In this document: one piece after another, positions 1,887 to 60,525 of the stretch | Layout of the letters: each line of letters begins with the position of its first letter | Position numbering within the stretch: position 1 is the stretch's first letter | Origin: Chiloscyllium plagiosum | Taxonomy: Eukaryota | Assembly (NCBI RefSeq): GCF_004010195.1 | Contig: NC_057718.1 | Coordinates: 104,162,342-104,226,341 of the forward strand | Direction: 5' to 3' | Length of the DNA: 64,000 nt | Translations under genes and position numbers: made by a program | The notes under the pieces: generated by a model | What the model was told of the DNA's origin: nothing | The model's database searches: none | The model's input: only the letters and a program-made list of their open reading frames with translations

Positions 1887-3245
1887 ATACCCACACACAT
1901 ATTTCCATATCCAGAGACTCATACCCAGACACACATACAAGCATACACCCATAGACACACACCCAGGTACACACCCACACGCATATACTCATACATCTGT
2001 GGACATGCACCCACACACGTGCACACTCATACACTCACACACGTGCACACTCATGCACCCACACACGTGCGCACTCATACACCCACACACATGCGCACTC
2101 ATACACGCACGCACTCATACACTCACACATGTGCACACTCATACACCCACACATGTGCGTGCACTCATGCACCCACACACATGCACACTCATGCACTCAC
2201 GCACGTGTGCACTCATGCACCCACACACATGCACACTCATGCACCCACACACATGCACACTCATGCACCCACACACGTGCGACTCATGCACCCACACACT
2301 CATACACCCACACACGTGCGCACTCATGCACCCACACACATGCACACTCATGCACTCACGCACGTGCGCACTCATGCACCCACACACGTACGCACTCATA
2401 CACACACACGTGCGCACTCATGCACCCACACGTGCGCACTCATGCACCCACACACGTGCGACTCATGCACCCACACACTCATACACCCACACACGTGCGC
2501 ACTCATGCACCCACACACGTGCACATTCATGCACCCACACACGTGCGCACTTATACACTCACACACTCACACACATGCGCAGTCATGTACCCACACACAT
2601 GCGCACTCATGCACCCACAAATGCACACTCATACACACAGACGTGCACACTCATGCACCCACACACGTGCGTACTCATGCACCCACACACGTGCGCACTC
2701 ATGCACCCACACGTGCACACTCATGCACCCACACACTCATACACCCACACATGTGCGCACTCATGCACCCACACACGTGCACATTCATGCACCCACACAC
2801 GTGCGCACTTATACACTCACACACTCATACACGTGCGCACTCATGCAACCACACACATGCACACTCATGCACCCACACACATGCACACTCGTGCACCCAC
2901 GCTCATACACTCACACACGTGCACACTCATGCACCCACACACTCATACACTCACACACGTGCGCACTCATACACCCATACACATGCACACTCATGCAACC
3001 ACACATGTGCACACTCATACCCACCCACACACGTGCACACTCATACACACACACTCATACACTCACACACGTGCGCGCTTATATACCCACACACTCACAC
3101 ACTCACACACGTGCGCACTCATGCATCCACACACATGCGCACTCATGCACCCATACACGTGCACACTCATACACTTACACTTGTGCACACTCATACACTT
3201 ACACATGTGCACACTTATACACCCATACTTGCACCCACACACACA
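1887..3245. repeat. CA-rich minisatellite, ~24-bp unit gcacccacacacgtgcacactcat (related tract at 1205-1325)
   Basis: Unit visible directly; 8-aa periodicity (MHPHTCTL) in all three + frames. Confidence 0.97.
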
Positions 3246-10599: not shown

Positions 10600-12430
10600 T
10601 TTGTCACAATGTTGAAGAATAACTATATTGTCAAAGTATAACTGTGTAACTGTATTATTGTATGGTATCAGGGTAATTATAATGGTACAGTGTAACAGTG
10701 TTGTCACAGTGTAACTATGTAATTGTAATAAAACAGTGTAATAGTATTGTCACAGTACAGTGTAACAGTATTTTCACAGTGTAACTGTGTAATTGTAATG
10801 GTACAGTGTAACAGTATGGTCAAAGTGTAACTGCGTAATTGTAATGGTACAGTGTAACAGCACTGCCAATGTGTAACTGTGTAACTGTAATGGTACAGTG
10901 TAACAGTATTGTCACAGTGTAACTGTGTAACTGTAATGGTGCATTGTAACAATATTAAACAGTGTAACTGTGTAAATGTAATGGTACAGTGTAACAGTAT
11001 TGTCAAAGTATAACTGCATAATTGTAATGGTAAGTGTAACAGCATTGTCAAAGTGTAACTGTGTAATTGTAATGGTACAGTGTAACAGTATTGTCAAAGT
11101 GTAACTGTGTAAATGTAATGGTACAGTGTAAAAGTATTGTAACAGTGTAACTGTGTAATTGTAGTAATACAGTGTAACAGTATTGTCACAGTGTAACTGT
11201 GTAATTGTAACAATACAGTGTAACAGTATTGTCGCAGTGTAACTGTAATTGTAATGGTACAGTGTAACAGCATTGTCAAAGTGTAACTGTGTAATTGTAA
11301 TAATACAGTGTAACAGTATTGTCGCAGTGTAACTGTAATTGTAATGGTACAGTGTAACAGCATTGTCAAAGTGTAACTGTGTAAATGTAATGGTACAGTG
11401 TAACAGTATAGTCAAAGTGTAACTGTGTAACTGTAATGGGACAGTGTAACAGCATTGTCACAGTATAGCAGTGTAACTGTAATGGCACAGTATAACAGTA
11501 CTGTCAAAGTTTAACTGTGTAATTGTAATGGTACAGTTTAACAGTATTGTCACTGTGTAACTGAGTAATTGTAACAATACAGTGTAACATTACAGTCACA
11601 GTGTAACTGTGTAATTGTAATAGTACAGTGTAATAGTATTGTCAAAGTGTAACTGTGTAACTGTAATGGTACAGTGTAACAGCATTGTCACAGTATAGCA
11701 GTGTAACTGTAATGGTACAGTATAACAGTACTGTCAAAGTTTAACTGTGTAATTGTAATGGTACAGTTTAACAGTATTGTCACTGTGTAACTGAGTAATT
11801 GTAACAATACAGTGTAACAGCATTGTCAAAGTGTAACTGTGTAATTGTAATAATACAGTGTAACAGTATTGTTGCAGTGTAACTGTAATTGTAATGGTAC
11901 AGTGTAACAGCATTGTCAAAGTGTAACTGTGTAATTGTAATAATACAGTGTAACAGTATTGTCGCAGTGTAACTGTAATTGTAATGGTACAGTGTAACAA
12001 TATTGTCACAGTGTAACTGTGTAAATGTAATAGTACAGTGTAACAGTATTGTCACAGTGTAACTGTGTAACTGTAATGGTACAGTGTAACGGTATTGTCC
12101 CAGTGTAACTGTTTAACTGTAATGGTACAGTGTAACAGCATTGTCACAGTGTAACTGTGTAATTGTAATAGTACAGTGTAACAATATTGTCACAGTGTAA
12201 CTGTGTAAATGCAATGGTACAGCATGACAGTATTGTCACAGTGTAACTGTGTAACTGTAATGGTACATTATAACAGTACTGTCAAAGTGTACCTGTGTAA
12301 TTGCAATGGTACAGTATAACAGTATTGTCACAGGGTAACTGTATAATTGTAATGGTACAGTGTAACAGCATTGTCACAGTGTAGCAGTGTAACTGTATTG
12401 TTGCAGACTAGCTGTATTATCACAGTGTCA
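10600..12430. repeat. Minisatellite, 46-bp unit gtaatggtacagtgtaacagtattgtcacagtgtaactgtgtaatt (~39 copies)
   Basis: Unit read directly; 44-bp variant units; internal tgtaa sub-repeats. Confidence 0.97.
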
Positions 12431-17760: not shown

Positions 17761-18970
17761 AAGAGAGAAAAAAATTCTTGGGCATGTGTATGAATTGTGA
17801 AATTTAACAGGAAAAAGTCTTAGAACATAGAACATTATAGCGCAGTACAGGCCCTATGGTGCCCGATGTTACGCCGACCTGTCATACCAACCTAAAGCCC
17901 ATCTAACCTCCACTATTCCATGTACGTCTTAATGACACTGACGGCAAGTCTGTAATTTTGAGAATTTATTTTCTGACTTGTTGTATTTTAATTCTAACTG
18001 TTTGGTCTCGGATGGTTTTATACTGAATTTCATAGAAGCTATACACCTGTGGTGAAATGGTATTATGAAGCGATGTTACACATTCTGAATTGAACATGAA
18101 TGAGTCAGGTTCCTCCAGGAAGAAGGCTCTGTTGTGAAAGGGGAGAAAATCTGTTTTAACAAGAGATTACTTCATGACTCCATTTCCTTCCAGAAGTCCC
18201 TGGGTACCAAGAGACGAGAATATCTGGGCCACAGAATATTTGTATCTCTTCTCCTTGAATATTTCCTCTCATCTCCTTTCTGGGAAAGGCATAACTATCT
18301 CAACAAAACCTCTTTAACTCATGAAGTGATTTTGAGAAACGAGGAATTGTATGCCCAAGAACACTCCCTGTTCTTCGTGGGAGGGTGGATATCACTGTCT
18401 CAGACAGGATTTATTGCCCATCCCTAATTGCCCAGAGGGCAGCCATGTTACTGTGGGTCTGGAATCACAAACCAGCTAGTGATAGCTGACTCCTCCCCCT
18501 CCAATGGGCATAATAGAATCAGCTGGGTCTTTACAGCAATGATTATATATTCTTTTAATTCATTCATAGAATGAGGATAGGTCAGCATTTATTGCCCATC
18601 CCTGATGCCCAGAGGGCAGTCCAGAGTCAACCACATTGCTGTAGGTCTGGTGTCACTGGGTAAGGGTGGCAGTCAACAAACAGGTTAGGGCCTGTCAGAG
18701 GGACCAGACACTGGGAATGGTTTGGGATGCTGATGGTCAAGATGTGGAAGACATTAATCATTCTTGTAAATAAGTACACAGATCAAGAAATTTTATAGCA
18801 GATCCTCAAAACTCAAAACACATGTTAATACGGTTTCACCTCCTGTATACATTACTAATTGGAGCAGACATTTTGAAAAAGAAATACACTAGCAGGAAGT
18901 TTAACTTTAAAAGCTTGGACAAAATAAGAATCAACAATAGCCCACAACTCGATCCACATGTGACTCTGTG

Positions 18971-19345
18971 TTCATTAGGTTTCATATGTTTATAGAATAA
19001 GGAATCTGAAACTGATACCTAGACAATTCTGTTACATCATGTCAACGCAAGTTTATTTACCTGGATATATTAGCAATTAGGTATTTAGTTAAAGACTAAA
19101 TTTAGTTTAAGACTAAATTAATCCCAGGAATTTGGGCTATTAAGAATACTAGATGTGGAAACCTTGTCACCCTATAGCTCTGTTTCCTTGCCTGCAGTCA
19201 GAAGGAACGTAGAAAATGTGTCCGGTTTCTGATATTGTTTGAAATGCTATTTGGATATTTTAAGTAATTTCATTGTAACTAATTTCCTGGAAATCACTTG
19301 GCTGGACTGAGCTCTCATTTAGTAATAACTGTCCAGTTAGACTTC
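18971..19345. repeat. Source arm of a ~375-bp inverted duplication (partner 20046-20419)
   Basis: Reverse-complement alignment by eye, about 29 differences (~92% identity). Confidence 0.95.
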
Positions 19346-19759
19346 AAGAAGATCTGATACCTTCCATTGATCTGATAATCAGCAACTCCAGACACTGTTC
19401 TAAGGGAATTTAATATTCTGAGTATCTTACACAGCCATTATAGTAAAGAACAGCAGATACTTTATAAACTGATCCACCTGTTACCATAGAAATCCTGATA
19501 GCTCAAGCCTTCCCTCCTTATTGTTATGGATAATATTTTTCATTTTGCGTTTTTGAGAAATCTGCAAATAGACACATGTCCTTTCTGAACTATCAGCCCC
19601 TGCTCTGGGTTAATGATCCCTCTGGCAGTTGTGTTAATGTTCAGGATGGGAATATTTCTTGGGATTGATTTAATCTCAGTTCCTCTTCACACTGATCTGG
19701 TGACAATTCCACCACCGATTTTCTGGGTCTCTCTGTCCTTTCATTTCCTTCACTGCTTC

Positions 19760-21075
19760 ATGATGACTCTGTCAGGCCAACAGCAGCAGAATTGTTCTCC
19801 ATCACAATCTGTAGCCTCATGGCCCAGCATATCACCCACTCAACCATCACCATCAAGCCTGGGGATCAACCCTGGTTCAATGGAGAGTGCAGGAGGGCAA
19901 TGCCAGGAATAAGGTGGAGGTGGGTACTGCAGATGCTGGAGATCAGAGTCAAGATTAGAGTGGTGCTGGAAAAGCACAGCAGGTCAGGCAGCATCCGAGG
20001 AGCAGGAAAATCGAAAAACCCTTCGTCAGGAATGAGCCCTCATTCGAGGTCTAACTGACAGTTATTACTGAAGGAGGGCTCAGTCCAGCCAAGTGATTTC
20101 CAGGAAATTAGTTACAATGAAATTACCTAAAATATCCAAATAGCATTTCAAACAATATCAGAAACCGGACACATTCTCTACGTTACTCTCTGGCTGCAGG
20201 CAAGGAAACAGAGCTATAGGGTGACAACATTTCTGCATCTAATATTCTTAATAGCCCAAATTCCTGGGCTTAATTTGGTCTTAAACTAAATTTAGTCTTT
20301 AACTAAATACCTAATTGCTAATATATCCAGGTAATAAACATACATTAACATGATGTAAGAGAATTATCGAGGTATCAGTTTCAGATTCCTTGTCCTACAA
20401 ACATATAAAACCTAATGAAGAACCCAGATGCTGCCTGATCTGCTGTGCTTTTCCAGCACCACTCTAATGCCAGGAATAACATTGGGCATATCTAAAAATA
20501 AGGTATCCACCTGTTGAAGCTACCAAACAAGACCACTACTGTGTCAAACAGTATGAACAGCAAGTGATAGAGCTAAGTGATCCACATCCATGAATCAGAG
20601 CTAAGCTCTGCAGTCTGCCACAATGGTGGTTGACAATTAAACAACTGACTGGAGGAGTAGGCTCCACACACACCCCATCCTCAATGATGGAAGAGCCCAG
20701 TACATCAGGGCAAATGATAAAGCTGAACCTTTTGCAGCAATCTTCAGCCAGAAGTGCTGATTGGTTGATCCATCTCTGCCTCCTCCATTGGTCCCCAGCA
20801 TCTCAGATACAAATCTTCAGCCAATTCGATTCACTCCACATGATACCAATAAACGGTTGGAGACACTGGATACAGCAAAGGCTATGGGCCCTGACAATAT
20901 TCTGGCAATAGCACTGAAGGCTTGTGCTCCAGAACTTGCAGCTCCCCGAGCCAAGCTGTTCCAGTACAGTTACATCACTGGCACCTACCCAGCATTATGG
21001 AAAATTACCCAGCTATGTCCTGTACATAAAAAGCAAGACAAATCCAACCCGGCCAATTACCTCCCCATCAGTCTA
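19760..21075 (+). mobile_element. CR1-group (Crack/Zenon-like) LINE ORF2 fragment, interrupted
   Basis: TITIKPGDQPWFNGECRRA before the insertion; LDTAKAMGPDNI..APELAAP..PVHKKQDKSNPANYLPISL after it. Confidence 0.88.
19913..20465. mobile_element. Composite PLE family A insertion: terminal repeat + captured local DNA + inverted terminal-repeat fragment
   Basis: TSD aatgccaggaataa at 19899-19912 and 20466-20479; PLE repeat 19921-20036, inverted repeat fragment 20426-20468. Confidence 0.9.
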
Positions 21076-25479: not shown

Positions 25480-25715
25480 GGGCAAGTTGTTTATACAGAG
25501 GTTCGTGTGTGGTATGATCTTCCAGAGGAATTGGTGGATGCAGGTCAAATATCAACCTTTAAAAGACATTTGGATGGATTCATGAAGTGGAAAGGTTTGG
25601 AGGGATATGGGCCTGGAGAAGGAAGGTGGGACTGGTTTGGTTTGGGATTATATTTAGTATGGACTGGTTGGACCAAAGGATCCGTTTCTGCACTGTATGC
25701 CTTTAAGACTCTGTA
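25480..25715 (+). mobile_element. CR1 3' end; 25508-25669 is duplicated in inverted orientation at 25919-26080
   Basis: VRVWYDLPEELVDAGQ..TFKRHLD on both strands; about 5 mismatches in 162 bp. Confidence 0.92.
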
Positions 25716-25910: not shown

Positions 25911-27316
25911 GATATTGAAACCAGTCCATGCTGAATATAATCCCAAACCAAACCAGTCCCACCTTCCTGCTCCAGGCCCATATCCCTCCAAACCTTTCCA
26001 CTTCATGAATCCATCCAAATGTCTTTTAAAGGTTGTAATTTGACCTGCATCCACCAATTCCTCTGGAAGATCATACCACATGTGTATGTGTGAATGCCCT
26101 AATTTGGTGTTCCCTGAGACCATTATCCCATTGGGGGAGAGGGGAGGGGTGGGGTCAGCAAACTAACAGTGTGGTGCTAGAAATGAAGTGGGGGGGGGGG
26201 GGTAAGGCAATCACCCAGCCGTGGAGAAACAGCCAACAGATTCCCAAGGAGCACAGTCAGGCAGGGGCTGCTTCATTATTCCCTAATCACTGCCACTCTC
26301 ACTTCATCCTGAGTCTCCATTTTTGGTATTTTTATCCCAGTGTGGAAGATTAATGTCTCAGCAAACATTTCTTACAAAGTTTAAATTTGACCCCGTTTTG
26401 CATTTTCGCAGTATGGTCAATTTAACTGTTATTTTTTGCACAGTAGTATAAATACAGCATTCCAATGTCTTCCCAAATTAATGTAACGGTGAGTAACACT
26501 CTGCCATGTAACCTTAGTTGGGAAGACCTTCTTTTGCCAATATAAATATCAAAGGTTGTTTGGGCTGTTAGACGCTCAGTAACATGACGTGATACTTTTT
26601 TATTTTAGTACGTCAGTCCCTCTCCAGTGAAGGCCCAATTGTAAACTCCTAAAATGAAGTGAATTGCAGAAGTCTAGACTGTTCAGTTCCGTGCAATGTT
26701 GTAATAACTGCTCCCTGTTTTTGGCAAGTTTTTTGCCTCGCAGTTCTCAAGAGACTGCGGTATAAATTAATCCGTGTGTTGATCTGAATTGTGCATTTTC
26801 TGCATGATTAGGGTTTGGCTTCAGTACGGCACTGTTATCCTTCCACTGCAGAAACGCTTTGGAAATCATTGTGAGCTCCAACCTTGCCAAGTAAGGCTAT
26901 TAAGAGGTGACAGGCAGCATGTTTTATTTCACAACACATATAAATATCCATTTAATGTTTTGTATTTTTTTTTTCAGATCGGCCCACAGTTCCCACACAG
27001 AGAATGTTCGAGTGCACTGTAATATTCAAAAACACAACACAAGAATCCGAGAGGCTGCAAGTTGCAGATGAGAGCCTTGTATGGAGGCGAAGACTGACAT
27101 TATTGTGACTCATTTAGTTTGCCCTCATTCCTGGTTAAATCCAGGGGGACTCGCCAGGCACTGCCCCAATCGTCTCCATGTATCCATGTTTATCTGGGTA
27201 ATTGAATTTTCAGAACAGCTGCCATCCATCAACCACTTAAGTGAGATCTGCTAATGTTCATTTGTTGTGGGCTGGAAGAAGGATCCAATCACAGGAATGT
27301 GGAGACAGAGATGCAA

Positions 27317-35652: not shown

Positions 35653-35940
35653 TATGTGGAGTTTGACAATAAATCCCACCTTTCAAGAGTTATGGGGTTA
35701 ATGGATGTGCCAGGAACTTCAATTCAGATTAAGTATTCATTTATATAGCGATTAAAATAACATTCACTGGATTTCCACTAAGTTGGGGTCGCTTTGGAGC
35801 ACTTCAGAAATTATGGATAAGTGCCAATTCCAGGATTCCTGACCGCATTCCTGATTTTCATAAGGACTAGGGAAGGGTGCAATGAGGTTCAGGTCATGTG
35901 TCTCGACCCTGCATTCCTGACCTTAGCAGCTCCTTTATGC

Positions 35941-36103
35941 AGGAGAAAGTGAGGACTGCAGATGCTGAACAGTCAGAGTTGAAAAGTGTGGCGCTGGAAA
36001 AGCACAGCAGGTCAGGCAGCATCCGAGGAGCAGGAAAGTCGACATTTCAGGCATAAGCCCTTCATCACCTTCCTGTGCTTTTCCAGCGCCACACTTATCG
36101 ACT
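35941..36103 (-). mobile_element. Short fold-back PLE family A insertion with TSD
   Basis: TSD cagctcctttatgc (35927-35940) / cagctcccttatgc (36104-36117); internal inverted gtgtggcgctggaaaagcacag / ctgtgcttttccagcgccacac. Confidence 0.9.
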
Positions 36104-36353
36104 CAGCTCCCTTATGCCGATAGGTAAGGTCCACTCCTCTGATCCAGCATGGAGTTAGACCAGGTTTTCAGAGCCTCATGGTTCAGGGCATGTCGGAGAT
36201 GATTGCATGAGGGAAGCTTACCCCAAAGAGTCCACCTCATGGCACCCGTGCCCTTCCACCCACATCTTCTGGTACTTGATGTCCCTGCAATGAACAGCTC
36301 ACCCCCTTCCTCCATACCACGTTTCTGCCCATTTGCTGATATGAACCCTATTG

Positions 36354-51113: not shown

Positions 51114-51470
51114 ATAGAATCTCAGGATTGTTAAGGTGCAAAAGAAAACAGTTGGCCCATCATTCTGCATTGGATAGCACCTGATTGCCTGTCCAGCCCA
51201 GTTATGGCGGTATTGAACTGTGTAATTTTGATTCTCAAGGAGCAGGAAGATCAGACGATGGCTAGCTCTGCTGCACTTGTAAATCATTCAAGTAACTGGT
51301 TTTTAAAATTCCCATATTCCCCCATGTGATGGAAAATAAAATTCACATGTGGAGATGGTTTCAATCGATTGCAACGTGTCCCATGTAAAGTCCCATGAGT
51401 ACGATGTGGTAGCCACATCTGCCCACTGCCCTAGCAGGGCTCAAATGAAGTGTGGACATGGTAAAGGGGC

Positions 51471-51670
51471 CAGCAGGTCAGGTAGCATCAGAGGAGCAGG
51501 AGAGTCAACGTTTCGGACAGGATCCTTCATCAGGAGTGAAAGAATCCTGATGAAAGGTTCCAACCTGAAACACTGACTCTCCTGCTCCTCTGATCTTACC
51601 TGACCTGTGCTTTTTCCAGCTCAACACTTTATTTACTCTGACTTTCCAGCACCTGCAGTCCTCACTACCT
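51471..51670. mobile_element. Fold-back PLE family A-like insertion with two opposed hammerhead cores
   Basis: ..tttcggacaggatccttcatcagga gtgaaagaa tcctgatgaaaggttccaacctgaaac..; degenerate flanking duplication agggctca(a/g)atgaa. Confidence 0.85.
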
Positions 51671-56310: not shown

Positions 56311-58555
56311 TGGGAATACCTATCGCTAGGTTCTATAAATTTTTCAGCACCACACTCTTCGACTCTATAAAATAAAACTTGGACGTTCTTTCAAAAGATG
56401 TCATTCAGTAAGGCTGTTACAGAATGCGCAGTCCATAAGTAAGTGTTTGCCTTCCATTTGTCTTTAGAGGTATCAGGTGAAAACCTAACACAACTCTCCT
56501 TATTACATAAGAAATTAGGCATTGGTAACCTGGTATTGAAGAATCCAACAGACATTTATTATGGTTCACTTATACACACAAACATTACGTCTGAGCTAAA
56601 GTTAAGTTAGTAAATTACACAGAACAGCATTCTTCAAGAAATGTGTCATGCTTCAGGATTCCTCGTAAGATGAGGTCCATGATCTTTACACCCTTAGATC
56701 ACACGCAGGCATATACTGACGATATTATGAATATGTCTCTTACAGGTATGCAGCACCAAGTGACCATGAGGCAGAACACAATAGACTCTCTTTCAGGCAA
56801 CACATAAATGTCAAGACTAAACCCAATTTGGGAATATTGTGGCATTACACTCAAAGATAGTTTGCTGTGAAATGCAATCAGAAAATAAAGTGATGAATTG
56901 CTCCTTGATTTTGGCCTGTTTTAAATAACTAGCAATATTCATAAATGTTATTCATTAACTGTGTTACTACATTCAGAAATACTGACAAGATTAATAACTA
57001 GGTATGGGGTCCTAATAAACTGCACATGTTAAGTGTAAACATTGAGAAATCTTCACTTCAGAAATTAAAGGGAACCCCTTGGCCAGGAACCTCAACAACA
57101 AACCAGTCTCCCGTATCATGTGATAGCTTCAGGTAACCAAATTAATGGGATGCAAGTGACACTGGGATTCGAGGATGCCGCTGTGATCGAATACTGAAGC
57201 ACAGCAAAGAGCTGAGTTAAACTCTACAGAGTGATTTCTTTGTGGCATTGGGGGAAGCAGGTGTTATCTTCTGGGGTCTTCCCAAAGGCTGCTCACTTCA
57301 AACCTTCCAGTTACTTCAGAGGAAAAAAATCCTGATTGATTTCTCCAATTTATGAAAGGCTGTACTCTTCAATAAAACACGGTTTACATATTCAAACACT
57401 GAGGAGAATACACTCAGCATGCCGTTAAACTCTCCTTTTGACAACCAATAGTAACAGACCAACCCTAACTAACAATGATTGCGAACCTTTTTAAATCAGG
57501 GGATATTGTACAGAGTTACTCTCTGAGCCACAGGAGAATCCTTTGTTTTCACAATCAGTCATCTGCATCTCTTCTAAGTCATTCCATATCACAAATTATT
57601 CTTCGAATGGAGCAAGCAAACTGTCAACTTGAATCTAATGTCAAACTGGAAGAATAATCAGCAGAAGAGAGTCCACAAAAGAGCTCCCAGAGTAATTTTT
57701 TAAATTTTGTATAATCAACAACAGATGACAAACATTAAAAATGTTCTCAGATTCGAAATAAGCATCTGTTCTGTTGCTTCCCTGATTAAAACTGAAAAGC
57801 TGTTCCTTTAGTTTCTCTCCTCATCTCATCCATGTCCTCTCATTTCATCTTAAAACCAATCTACTCTGTCCTTGATCATATTCCAAATAAACTGATAATC
57901 ATAACCCTCTCTTCCCTGGCCCTCATGTTAACATCCGAAGTAATTCTCTCAACACAGCTACTGTCCCCGGTCCTTCCCAAACAGCCCTATCCTCACTCAC
58001 CACAGTTACTGTCTCCTTGCTGCTATCATCCCATCACCAAACTTCAACCCCTGGTTATCTCAAAGGTCCTCACCTCCAGCCTTTGATCTCTATGTCGTCA
58101 TTGTCCACAGGAATAGTGCCAGAAGACTGAAGGATAGCAAATGTTGTCCCTTTGTTCAAGAAGGGGACTAGAGACAACCCTGGTAATTATAGACCAGTGA
58201 GCCTTACTTCGGTTGTGGGTAAAGTATTGGAAAAGGTCATAAGAGATAGGATATATAATCATCTTGAGAGGAATAAGTTGATCAGGGATAGTCAACATGG
58301 TTTTGTGAAGGGTAGGTTGTGCCTCACAAACCTGATTGAGTTTTTTGAGATGGTGACCAAATAGGTGTTTGAGAGTAAAGTTGTTAATGTGGTATATGGA
58401 TTTCAGTAAAGCATTTGATGAGGCTTCCCACGTTTGGCTATTGCACAAAATATGGAGGCATGGGATTCAGGATGATTTAGCGGTTTGGATCAGAAATTGG
58501 CTAGCTGAATGAAAACAGAGGGTAGTGGTTGATGGGAAATGTCATCCTGGAGTTC

Positions 58556-58776
58556 TGATTTGGAGATGCCGGTGTTGGACTGGGGTGTACAAAGTTAAAA
58601 ATCACACAACACCAGGTTATCGTCCAACAGGTTTAATTAGAAGCACACTAGCTTTCGGAGCGACACTCCTTCATCAGGTTATTGTCACAATCACCTGATG
58701 AAGGAGCGACACTCCGAAAGCTAGTGTGCTTCCAATTAAACCTGTTGGACTATAACCTGGTGTTGTGTGATTTTTA
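58556..58776. mobile_element. Palindromic PLE family B insertion with a hammerhead on each strand
   Basis: TSD atcctggagttc at 58544-58555 and 58777-58788; 90-bp inverted arms centred on 58686. Confidence 0.93.
58692..58726 (+). ncRNA. Minimal type I hammerhead ribozyme (PLE family B)
   Basis: CAC-CUGAUGA-A-GGAG-cgaca-CUCC-GAA-AGCU-A-GUG: stem I CAC/GUG, AGCU palindrome, CUA triplet. Confidence 0.8.
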
Positions 58777-58893
58777 ATCCTGGAGTTCAGTTACTACTGG
58801 TGTACCGCAAGGATCTGTTTTTGGGCCACTGCTGTCTATCATTTTTATAAATAACCTAGATGAGGGCATAGAAGGATGGGATCGTAAATTTGC

Positions 58894-60365: not shown

Positions 60366-60525
60366 AGGTCTGGCAGCATCTGTGGCAAGAAATCAGAGTT
60401 AACGTTTCAGGTCAAGTGACCCTTAATCAGAACTTGCTTGAACTCAAAATGTTAACTCTGTTTCTCTCTCCACAGATGCTGCCCGACTTGCAAAGGTACC
60501 TCAGTATTCTCTGGTTTTGTGTGTT
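60366..60525. mobile_element. Fold-back PLE family C repeat
   Basis: ggcagcatctgtgg..cagagttaacgtttc versus aaaatgttaactctg..ccacagatgctgcc. Confidence 0.75.

What the first reader, a model, noticed from the sequence alone, without database searches (positions are those of the whole stretch)
18971..20479. Penelope insertion that captured an inverted copy of neighbouring genomic DNA
Seen: within a perfect 14-bp TSD (aatgccaggaataa) lie, in order, a PLE repeat (19921-20036), a tiny fold-back gaatgag-cc-ctcattc, an inverted ~92%-identical copy (20046-20419) of DNA from 18971-19345, and an inverted PLE repeat fragment. The hammerhead region is deleted and replaced. The host LINE resumes after the TSD. 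Inference: during integration, synthesis switched template onto a locus 0.55-0.95 kb away (DNA or nascent RNA) and back. That would be a PLE-driven route to local inverted duplications and to ~375-bp dsRNA hairpins.
Basis: partly seen in the sequence, partly recalled or inferred. Interest (0 to 1): 0.85.

Follow-up and report, generated by a model that had tools for sequence, protein, structure and literature searches.

The report
Penelope insertion copied nearby host DNA
A short, two-armed insertion of a Penelope-like jumping gene carries in its middle a backwards 374-base copy of unique DNA from 0.55-0.93 kb away, and about one in ten of the longer such insertions sampled in this genome holds a similar local copy, likely made when a loose DNA end borrowed neighbouring DNA as a template while the insertion was being sealed.

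Summary
Inside a 14-bp target-site duplication in a LINE lie a Penelope-like arm with its tail, a 9-nt patch, a 92%-identical inverted copy of 18971-19345, and a second, inverted, tail-less arm. The donor has only these two matches in the genome, and the junction is also in independent runs of two organisms, so it is not an assembly error. The hammerhead is broken by a 10-nt deletion, not replaced by the filler. The event recurs: 14 of 141 TSD-bounded long two-armed insertions held a 40-320-bp copy of their own flank (13/114, then 1/27 in a second sample; control 2 of 26,220 foreign pairings). Donors lie on either side and in either orientation, mostly within 1 kb. Some copies run through the new element-flank junction, which points to DNA templates. 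Best reading: both ends of the cut are primed, and a free cDNA end switches onto local DNA before the arms join; the polymerase is unknown. Inverted arms, captured host DNA and L1 templated insertions are published; the local origin, geometry and rate in Penelope elements were not found in my searches. This scan noted single cases elsewhere in this genome. A dsRNA hairpin is untested.

The parts
18971..19345 (+). Donor: unique host DNA, 553-928 bp left of the insertion; no TSD or element arms of its own
   Evidence: contigs of organism B cross both of its borders (records 25 and 26)
19771..19898 (+). Host LINE ORF2 remnant, part before the insertion (family label CR1/L2-like is recalled, not from a call)
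   Evidence: translation; collinearity with paralogues
19899..19912 (+). Left TSD copy (14 bp; 13 if the first A is not counted)
19913..20036 (-). Arm 1: Penelope-like end with the 41-44-nt tail; element sense is the minus strand; hammerhead broken by a 10-nt deletion at 20014/20015
20037..20045 (+). 9-nt junction patch: either a fold-back on the arm's last 7 nt, or a short copy of donor 19312-19320; the 13-mer 20033-20045 equals donor or filler letter at every position of 19308-19320
   Evidence: sequence with the difference list; reading is inference
20046..20419 (-). Filler: inverted copy of 18971-19345, 92.3% identical
20420..20426 (.). 7-nt linker: a 3-nt repeat of the filler's end, then the donor's continuation with one mismatch, sharing 2-3 nt with arm 2
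   Evidence: junction print; reading is inference
20427..20465 (+). Arm 2: short inverted Penelope-like end without tail; its outer 3 nt overlap the TSD
20466..20479 (+). Right TSD copy
20480..21075 (+). Host LINE ORF2 remnant resumes

Best explanation
This is a two-armed Penelope-like insertion whose central junction holds an inverted copy of unique DNA from 0.55-0.93 kb upstream, likely made by a DNA-templated switch of a free cDNA end before the two arms were joined. Inferred steps: (1) the element's nuclease cut both strands 13-14 nt apart; (2) each 3' end primed a short cDNA on element RNA, one from the outer start site (arm 1, with tail) and one from the inner site (arm 2); (3) the cDNAs are the same strand of the element and cannot anneal, so the break had to be closed by end joining; (4) arm 1's end, after a 9-nt patch, primed on the exposed top strand near 19345 and was extended 374 nt leftwards (arm 2 copying the other strand gives the same product); (5) it let go and joined arm 2 through 2-3 nt of microhomology; fill-in made the TSD. 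Shown: the anatomy, the single local donor, recurrence and the four geometries. Not shown: the order of events and the polymerase (host repair polymerase or the element's own RT).
For: Two-armed layout is the family norm: 27 convergent against 6 divergent stub pairs in 444 kb; TSD mode 14 bp, 76 of 120 loci, control 0 of 60. A lizard Penelope-like protein cuts and extends both strands and has two RT start sites (PMC11167929, parts 1-2 of 4 read). Local copies in 13 of 114 TSD-bounded unbiased loci against 2 of 26,220 foreign pairings; 1 of 27 in a second sample. All four geometries occur (left or right, direct or inverted), as two loose ends predict. L314 and L362 fold back through arm 1 and the TSD into 68 and 202 bp of flank, and L161, L207, L323 copy flank plus TSD plus arm: these templates did not exist before the insertion. 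Nearest donor edges of 16 non-abutting cases are 60-874 bp, skewed to the site; none at 1-3 kb in 40 loci with 3-kb flanks; one clear case at 1.8-2.0 kb among 9 loci read to 10 kb. Of 32 junctions, 17 have no added bases (12 of them with 2 nt or more of microhomology) and 15 have 1-13 added bases, several repeating adjacent sequence.
Against: The second sample gave 0 of 26 by script and 1 of 27 after a missed TSD was seen by eye, and that one abuts the site; the rate is loosely known (Wilson interval 7-19% for 13/114). The rate holds only for long inserts (270-570 bp) with exact motifs; 24 of 27 pairs in 444 kb have under 100 bp between arms, so the share of all insertions is lower. Polymerase-theta insertions are generally under 25 bp (PMC12426944, passages), so theta alone fits the long tracts badly. 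Many fillers are not local: one comes from another chromosome (99%) and some begin with another retroelement's repeat tail (L148, L332), which looks like RNA capture. At this locus the first junction has no plain microhomology, and the filler is 7.7% from its donor while the arms differ at 1 of 39 sites. The microhomology measure is lenient and its null (0.156) is my own estimate. Abutting direct copies could be later tandem duplications.
Confidence: 0.63

Rival explanations
1. The element's reverse transcriptase jumped from element RNA to a nascent transcript of the neighbouring DNA and back.
For: Fillers from another chromosome and fillers that start at a retroelement tail suggest RNA capture does occur. 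One L1 case of co-inserted local pre-mRNA is reported (PMC10191854, passage). Orientation cannot exclude it: either arm may have copied.
Against: Fold-backs through the new arm-TSD-flank junction (L314, L362) need a template that arose with the insertion. Donors cluster within 1 kb, while a transcript should offer many kb.
Confidence: 0.15
2. The element first landed as a flush palindrome; the palindrome later broke at its centre and repair pasted in local DNA (centre-break revision; mechanism recalled, one search listing only).
For: Most pairs are near-flush palindromes. In 14 young cases filler-donor divergence (13 of 1,995) is lower than arm-arm divergence (23 of 1,090), which a later capture would give.
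Against: Arms can come from different source RNAs (L036 has two subfamilies), which inflates arm-arm divergence. At this locus the filler is more diverged than the arms. Arm 2 is only 39 bp, a weak hairpin.
Confidence: 0.14
3. Unrelated events: two independent stubs, or a later inverted duplication or gene conversion that happened to land in the element.
For: 2 of the 5 local inverted duplications in 444 kb have no element arm of this kind nearby, so other routes exist.
Against: One TSD encloses both arms and the filler, and LINE paralogues are collinear across it; own-flank matches exceed foreign ones about a thousandfold; in the surveyed cases the filler mostly sits between the arms.
Confidence: 0.06
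4. Assembly artefact.
For: Inverted repeats confuse assemblers; one X1 contig passes from filler into the donor's left flank.
Against: 29 differences between the copies; the junction is in X1 and in organism B.
Confidence: 0.02

Closest known systems
Insertion unit of endonuclease-bearing Penelope-like elements (Arkhipova et al. 2013, PMC3846280, passages; Craig et al. 2021, PMC8557442, passages)
   Same: [quoted passage not shown]
   Different: The passages read do not trace captured DNA to the flank of the insertion, and give no rate or geometry; they explain inverted junctions by self-priming and capture by read-through transcripts.
PAc (Poseidon, Anolis) in vitro mechanism (Frangieh et al. 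2024, PMC11167929; parts 1-2 of 4 read)
   Same: Both strands cut and extended; two internal RT start sites that bracket the tail; predicted dimer. This accounts for the two arms.
   Different: Steps after priming are stated to be unvalidated; no fillers are described in the parts read. Different clade label.
L1 templated insertions and 5' fold-back inversions (Nam et al. 2023, PMC10191854, passage; bioRxiv 10.1101/2024.08.27.596794, passages; PMC11702581, passages)
   Same: Genomic DNA near the target copied into a retrotransposon insertion; fold-backs of 52-220 bp (3 cases, 0.3%, plus 1 with both features); 22 templated insertions attributed to cDNA pairing with nearby DNA.
   Different: L1 templates are typically under 250 bp and within 15 bp of the site, somatic, with one poly-A-primed end. 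Here the donors start 60-1,800 bp away on either side, in germline copies with two arms. The L1 authors say their count is a lower bound.
Templated insertions at double-strand breaks: polymerase-theta end joining (PMC12426944, passages) and yeast fold-back insertions (PMC11724301, abstract)
   Same: Microhomology, short iterated patches, direct and inverted copies of flank, and distant donors.
   Different: Those local insertions are mostly under 25-34 bp and next to the break; tracts here are 40-376 bp.

Membership tests
Endonuclease-bearing Penelope-like element | C-terminal GIY-YIG endonuclease in the family's ORF | tested here: inconclusive
   Longer copies give only weak Pfam GIY-YIG hits (E 0.008 and 0.074, below the curated cut-off). 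In L220 that ORF end lies about 100 bp from a stub 78% like arm 1. The insertion itself has no nuclease sequence.
Endonuclease-bearing Penelope-like element | Telomerase-like RT upstream of the nuclease | not tested
   The one long frame fetched was an assembly gap; no full-length copy was read.
Endonuclease-bearing Penelope-like element | Inverted 5'-truncated copy with a 30-40-bp tail on one end only | tested here: met
   Arm 1 starts 41-44 nt outside the point where arm 2 starts; same offset in many relatives.
Endonuclease-bearing Penelope-like element | Hammerhead motif in the pseudo-LTR | tested here: inconclusive
   Relatives show CTGAWGA..GAAAC by eye (motif recalled); this copy has lost 10 nt of it; Rfam gave no hammerhead in 18900-20600.
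Endonuclease-bearing Penelope-like element | Target-site duplication | tested here: met
   14 bp here; family mode 14 bp, control 0 of 60.
Neptune clade | CX2-5CxxC motif upstream of GIY-YIG | tested here: inconclusive
   CxxC is present right after the gap in L220; the first cysteine would lie in the gap. No tree was built.
L1-type templated insertion | Neighbouring genomic DNA copied inside the TSD | tested here: met
L1-type templated insertion | Template under 250 bp within 15 bp of the site; L1 body with poly-A | tested here: not met
   374 bp, 553 bp away, no poly-A. It works like one but is not one.
Polymerase-theta templated insertion | Insert generally under 25 bp from the immediate flank | tested here: not met
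   Main tract 374 bp; only the 9-nt and 7-nt patches fit.
Polymerase-theta templated insertion | Genetic dependence on POLQ | not testable with these tools
   Needs de novo insertions in mutant cells.

The most novel reading that the evidence does not exclude
Penelope-like integration is a double-strand break with two separately reverse-transcribed ends that cannot anneal, and the element's own telomerase-related RT (or a long-tract host pathway it recruits) closes the gap by copying hundreds of bases of resected flank. The fillers would then be a fossil record of end processing in the germline, and these elements a major maker of sub-kilobase direct and inverted duplications: hundreds of young cases in this genome alone.
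Probability: 0.3. Interest if true: 0.72.

Novelty: new variant of a known kind. Interest (0 to 1): 0.5.

Why it matters
How Penelope-like insertions are finished after priming is an open step (PMC11167929 says so). Fillers with a traceable local donor constrain it: both ends stay loose, and up to about 1-2 kb of flank is available as template. The pattern gives a cheap genome-wide read-out (donor side, orientation, distance, junction) and a clear test in the in vitro system. It also makes local duplications; 3 of the 5 clear local inverted duplications in 444 kb came from such elements (one host capture, two pairs of element arms). The single locus alone is an old, probably neutral scar.

Tried and rejected
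Empty orthologous site: none seen; the one read-laying run showed the junction in organisms A and B, and organism C is inconclusive (the extra G at 20056 is the donor's letter). Polarising donor against filler with other species' alleles was dropped because the contigs may be donor-filler chimeras. One X1 contig joins the filler to the donor's left flank; it may be an assembly-graph chimera through the 57-bp identical stretch or an inversion allele, and cannot be told apart. The arms can pair in principle (duplex -557 kcal/mol, longest perfect stretch 57 bp), which says nothing on expression. A full-length element was sought and turned out to be a gap. Masking by cross-locus hits was imperfect (it hid L134 and L303 fillers), so captures were called on own-versus-foreign identity instead. 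Five same-site duplicate loci were dropped before counting. The 40 loci picked for visible fillers are not in the rate. Four list entries were skipped in the second sample because they were already in that picked set; none had a local donor, three had a TSD (14 of 144 if added); one entry of another family was skipped. Non-TSD loci with local matches (L103, L108, L133, L305, L317, L322, L380) were not counted. Literature: searches found no paper that describes locally templated fillers in Penelope-like insertions; the library lacks most subscription papers, no paper was read whole and no supplements were read, so such a description could have been missed.

Full report
What is there. Between two copies of a 14-bp duplication (19899-19912, 20466-20479) lie 553 bp: arm 1 (19913-20036), a 9-nt patch, the filler (20046-20419), a 7-nt linker and arm 2 (20427-20465). 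The filler is the reverse complement of 18971-19345 at 92.3%, 29 differences in 376 columns. The donor has two matches in the 3.56-Gb assembly, itself and the filler, and no match to longer copies of the element. The host is a LINE ORF2 remnant; paralogues align across the site without offset in 6 of 7 rows, from 4 places, and lack one A, so the duplication is 13 or 14 bp. Contigs from an independent run of organism A and from organism B, about 4-5% diverged here, carry the arm-patch-filler junction, so the structure is real and older than that split. The hammerhead is damaged by a 10-nt deletion inside arm 1; the filler begins about 30 nt further on.

The element. The arms are the end of a very abundant repeat (2,516 candidates; 111 stub hits in 444 kb). 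Longer copies end in a frame with weak GIY-YIG similarity preceded by CxxC. With the hammerhead-like motif, the one-sided tail and the TSD, this fits an endonuclease-bearing Penelope-like element, probably Neptune-type; the RT was not seen. Two arms facing each other are normal for this family: 27 convergent against 6 divergent pairs within 700 bp, and this layout is published. A lizard element's protein cuts and extends both strands from two RNA start sites, which explains one long and one short arm. So the unusual part is only the filler.

Does it recur? Pattern searches for two arms at set distances gave 358, 297, 393, 482, 577, 356 and 615 whole-genome hits per 31-bp window. I examined the first listed loci: 190 after dropping 5 duplicates, 114 with a TSD. 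Thirteen of the 114 hold 40 bp or more at 95% or better matching their own 1.5-kb flanks better than anything foreign; the same rule passed 2 of 26,220 foreign pairings. Three of the 13 abut the site; of the other 10, five are inverted and five direct. A further case has its donor 1.8-2.0 kb away (L130). A second sample of 40 gave 0 of 26 by script and one fold-back, L362, whose 14-bp TSD the script's filter missed: 1 of 27. Pooled, 14 of 141. This is a rate for long, young inserts; most pairs are near-flush (24 of 27 under 100 bp), so the share of all insertions is lower. Scaling the hit counts gives a few hundred young captures in the genome (inference). Close structural twins of this finding include L111 (318 bp, 100%, inverted, 60-377 bp left), L177, L329 and L307.

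Template. Donors lie left or right, direct or inverted. Two loose 3' ends give exactly these four products: each end can fold back on its own side (inverted) or invade the other side (direct). L314 and L362 copy arm 1 backwards through the TSD into the flank and then join arm 2; that template did not exist before the insertion, which argues for DNA. Nearest donor edges in 16 non-abutting cases (10 unbiased, 5 picked, this locus) run from 60 to 874 bp, skewed to the site; 40 loci with 3-kb flanks showed none at 1-3 kb. Junctions show short microhomology (12 of 17 without added bases have 2 nt or more) or 1-13 added bases (15 of 32), several repeating adjacent sequence; the measure is lenient. 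Young fillers are nearly exact (13 differences in 1,995 bp), so the 7.7% here reflects age, not sloppy copying. Against a single story: many fillers are not local; L131's comes from another chromosome, five (L036, L131, L143, L145, L165) had no donor within 10 kb, and some start at another retroelement's tail.

Why this donor. The 13 nt at 20033-20045 equal the donor's or the filler's letter at every position of 19308-19320. If that was the ancestral sequence, the donor held a 7-nt complement of arm 1's end, 25 nt inside the copied tract, and the 'tiny fold-back' may be a first short patch from the same donor. This is inference.

What is known. Host DNA between Penelope repeats within a TSD is described in a rotifer. 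L1 insertions with copied target-flank DNA are described in tumours and normal tissue at 0.3-0.6%, with templates next to the site. Repair-made templated insertions are usually under 25-34 bp. My nine literature searches found no account of local donors in Penelope-like insertions. Earlier notes of this scan record four single cases in the same genome; they are unchecked and are not counted as support.

Verdict. Real, recurring, a new variant of a known kind. The mechanism most likely is a DNA-templated switch during closure of a doubly primed break (0.63); RT jumping to nascent RNA (0.15) and later repair of a palindrome (0.14) remain open. The dsRNA consequence is untested. Interest 0.5.

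Noticed in passing
L273, L290, L294, L354 (1,470 bp to the locus edge), L302, L285, L280, L139, L281, L288, L291, L369, L275, L121: A young family: one fixed palindromic two-armed stub followed by the same non-coding-looking flank, 100% identical, cut at 68 to over 1,470 bp, at 14 held loci with different outer flanks; some are closed by a further arm and a TSD. It looks like a single source locus whose read-in transcript is being retrotransposed with its host flank. Roughly a third of the 100 rows listed share its 396-bp length. Source locus and full length not found.
   Followed up: partly
L131:1620-1853 and L240: A 234-bp filler between two arms, 99% identical to a single site on another chromosome with no element arm within 150 bp of it: capture in trans.
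   Followed up: partly
L148, L332: Fillers that begin with the short-repeat tail of another retroelement, as if reverse transcription jumped to that RNA's 3' end.
   Followed up: no
window 25508-25669 and 25919-26080: A 162-bp local inverted duplication (96.9%) of a common repeat fragment, 249 bp apart, with no Penelope arm or TSD found.
   Followed up: partly
window 35940-36104, 51443-51634, 58555-58777, 60368-60487: Further palindromic two-armed insertions, of this and apparently other Penelope-like families.
   Followed up: no
L036: The two arms of one insertion appear to come from different subfamilies, suggesting two RNA molecules per event; no TSD was found by script.
   Followed up: no
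window 18627-20176, run X1 record 2: A contig that runs from the filler into the donor's left flank: assembly-graph chimera or an inversion allele between the two inverted copies.
   Followed up: no
window 1906-3245 and 10601-12428: Two arrays of diverged tandem repeats.
   Followed up: no
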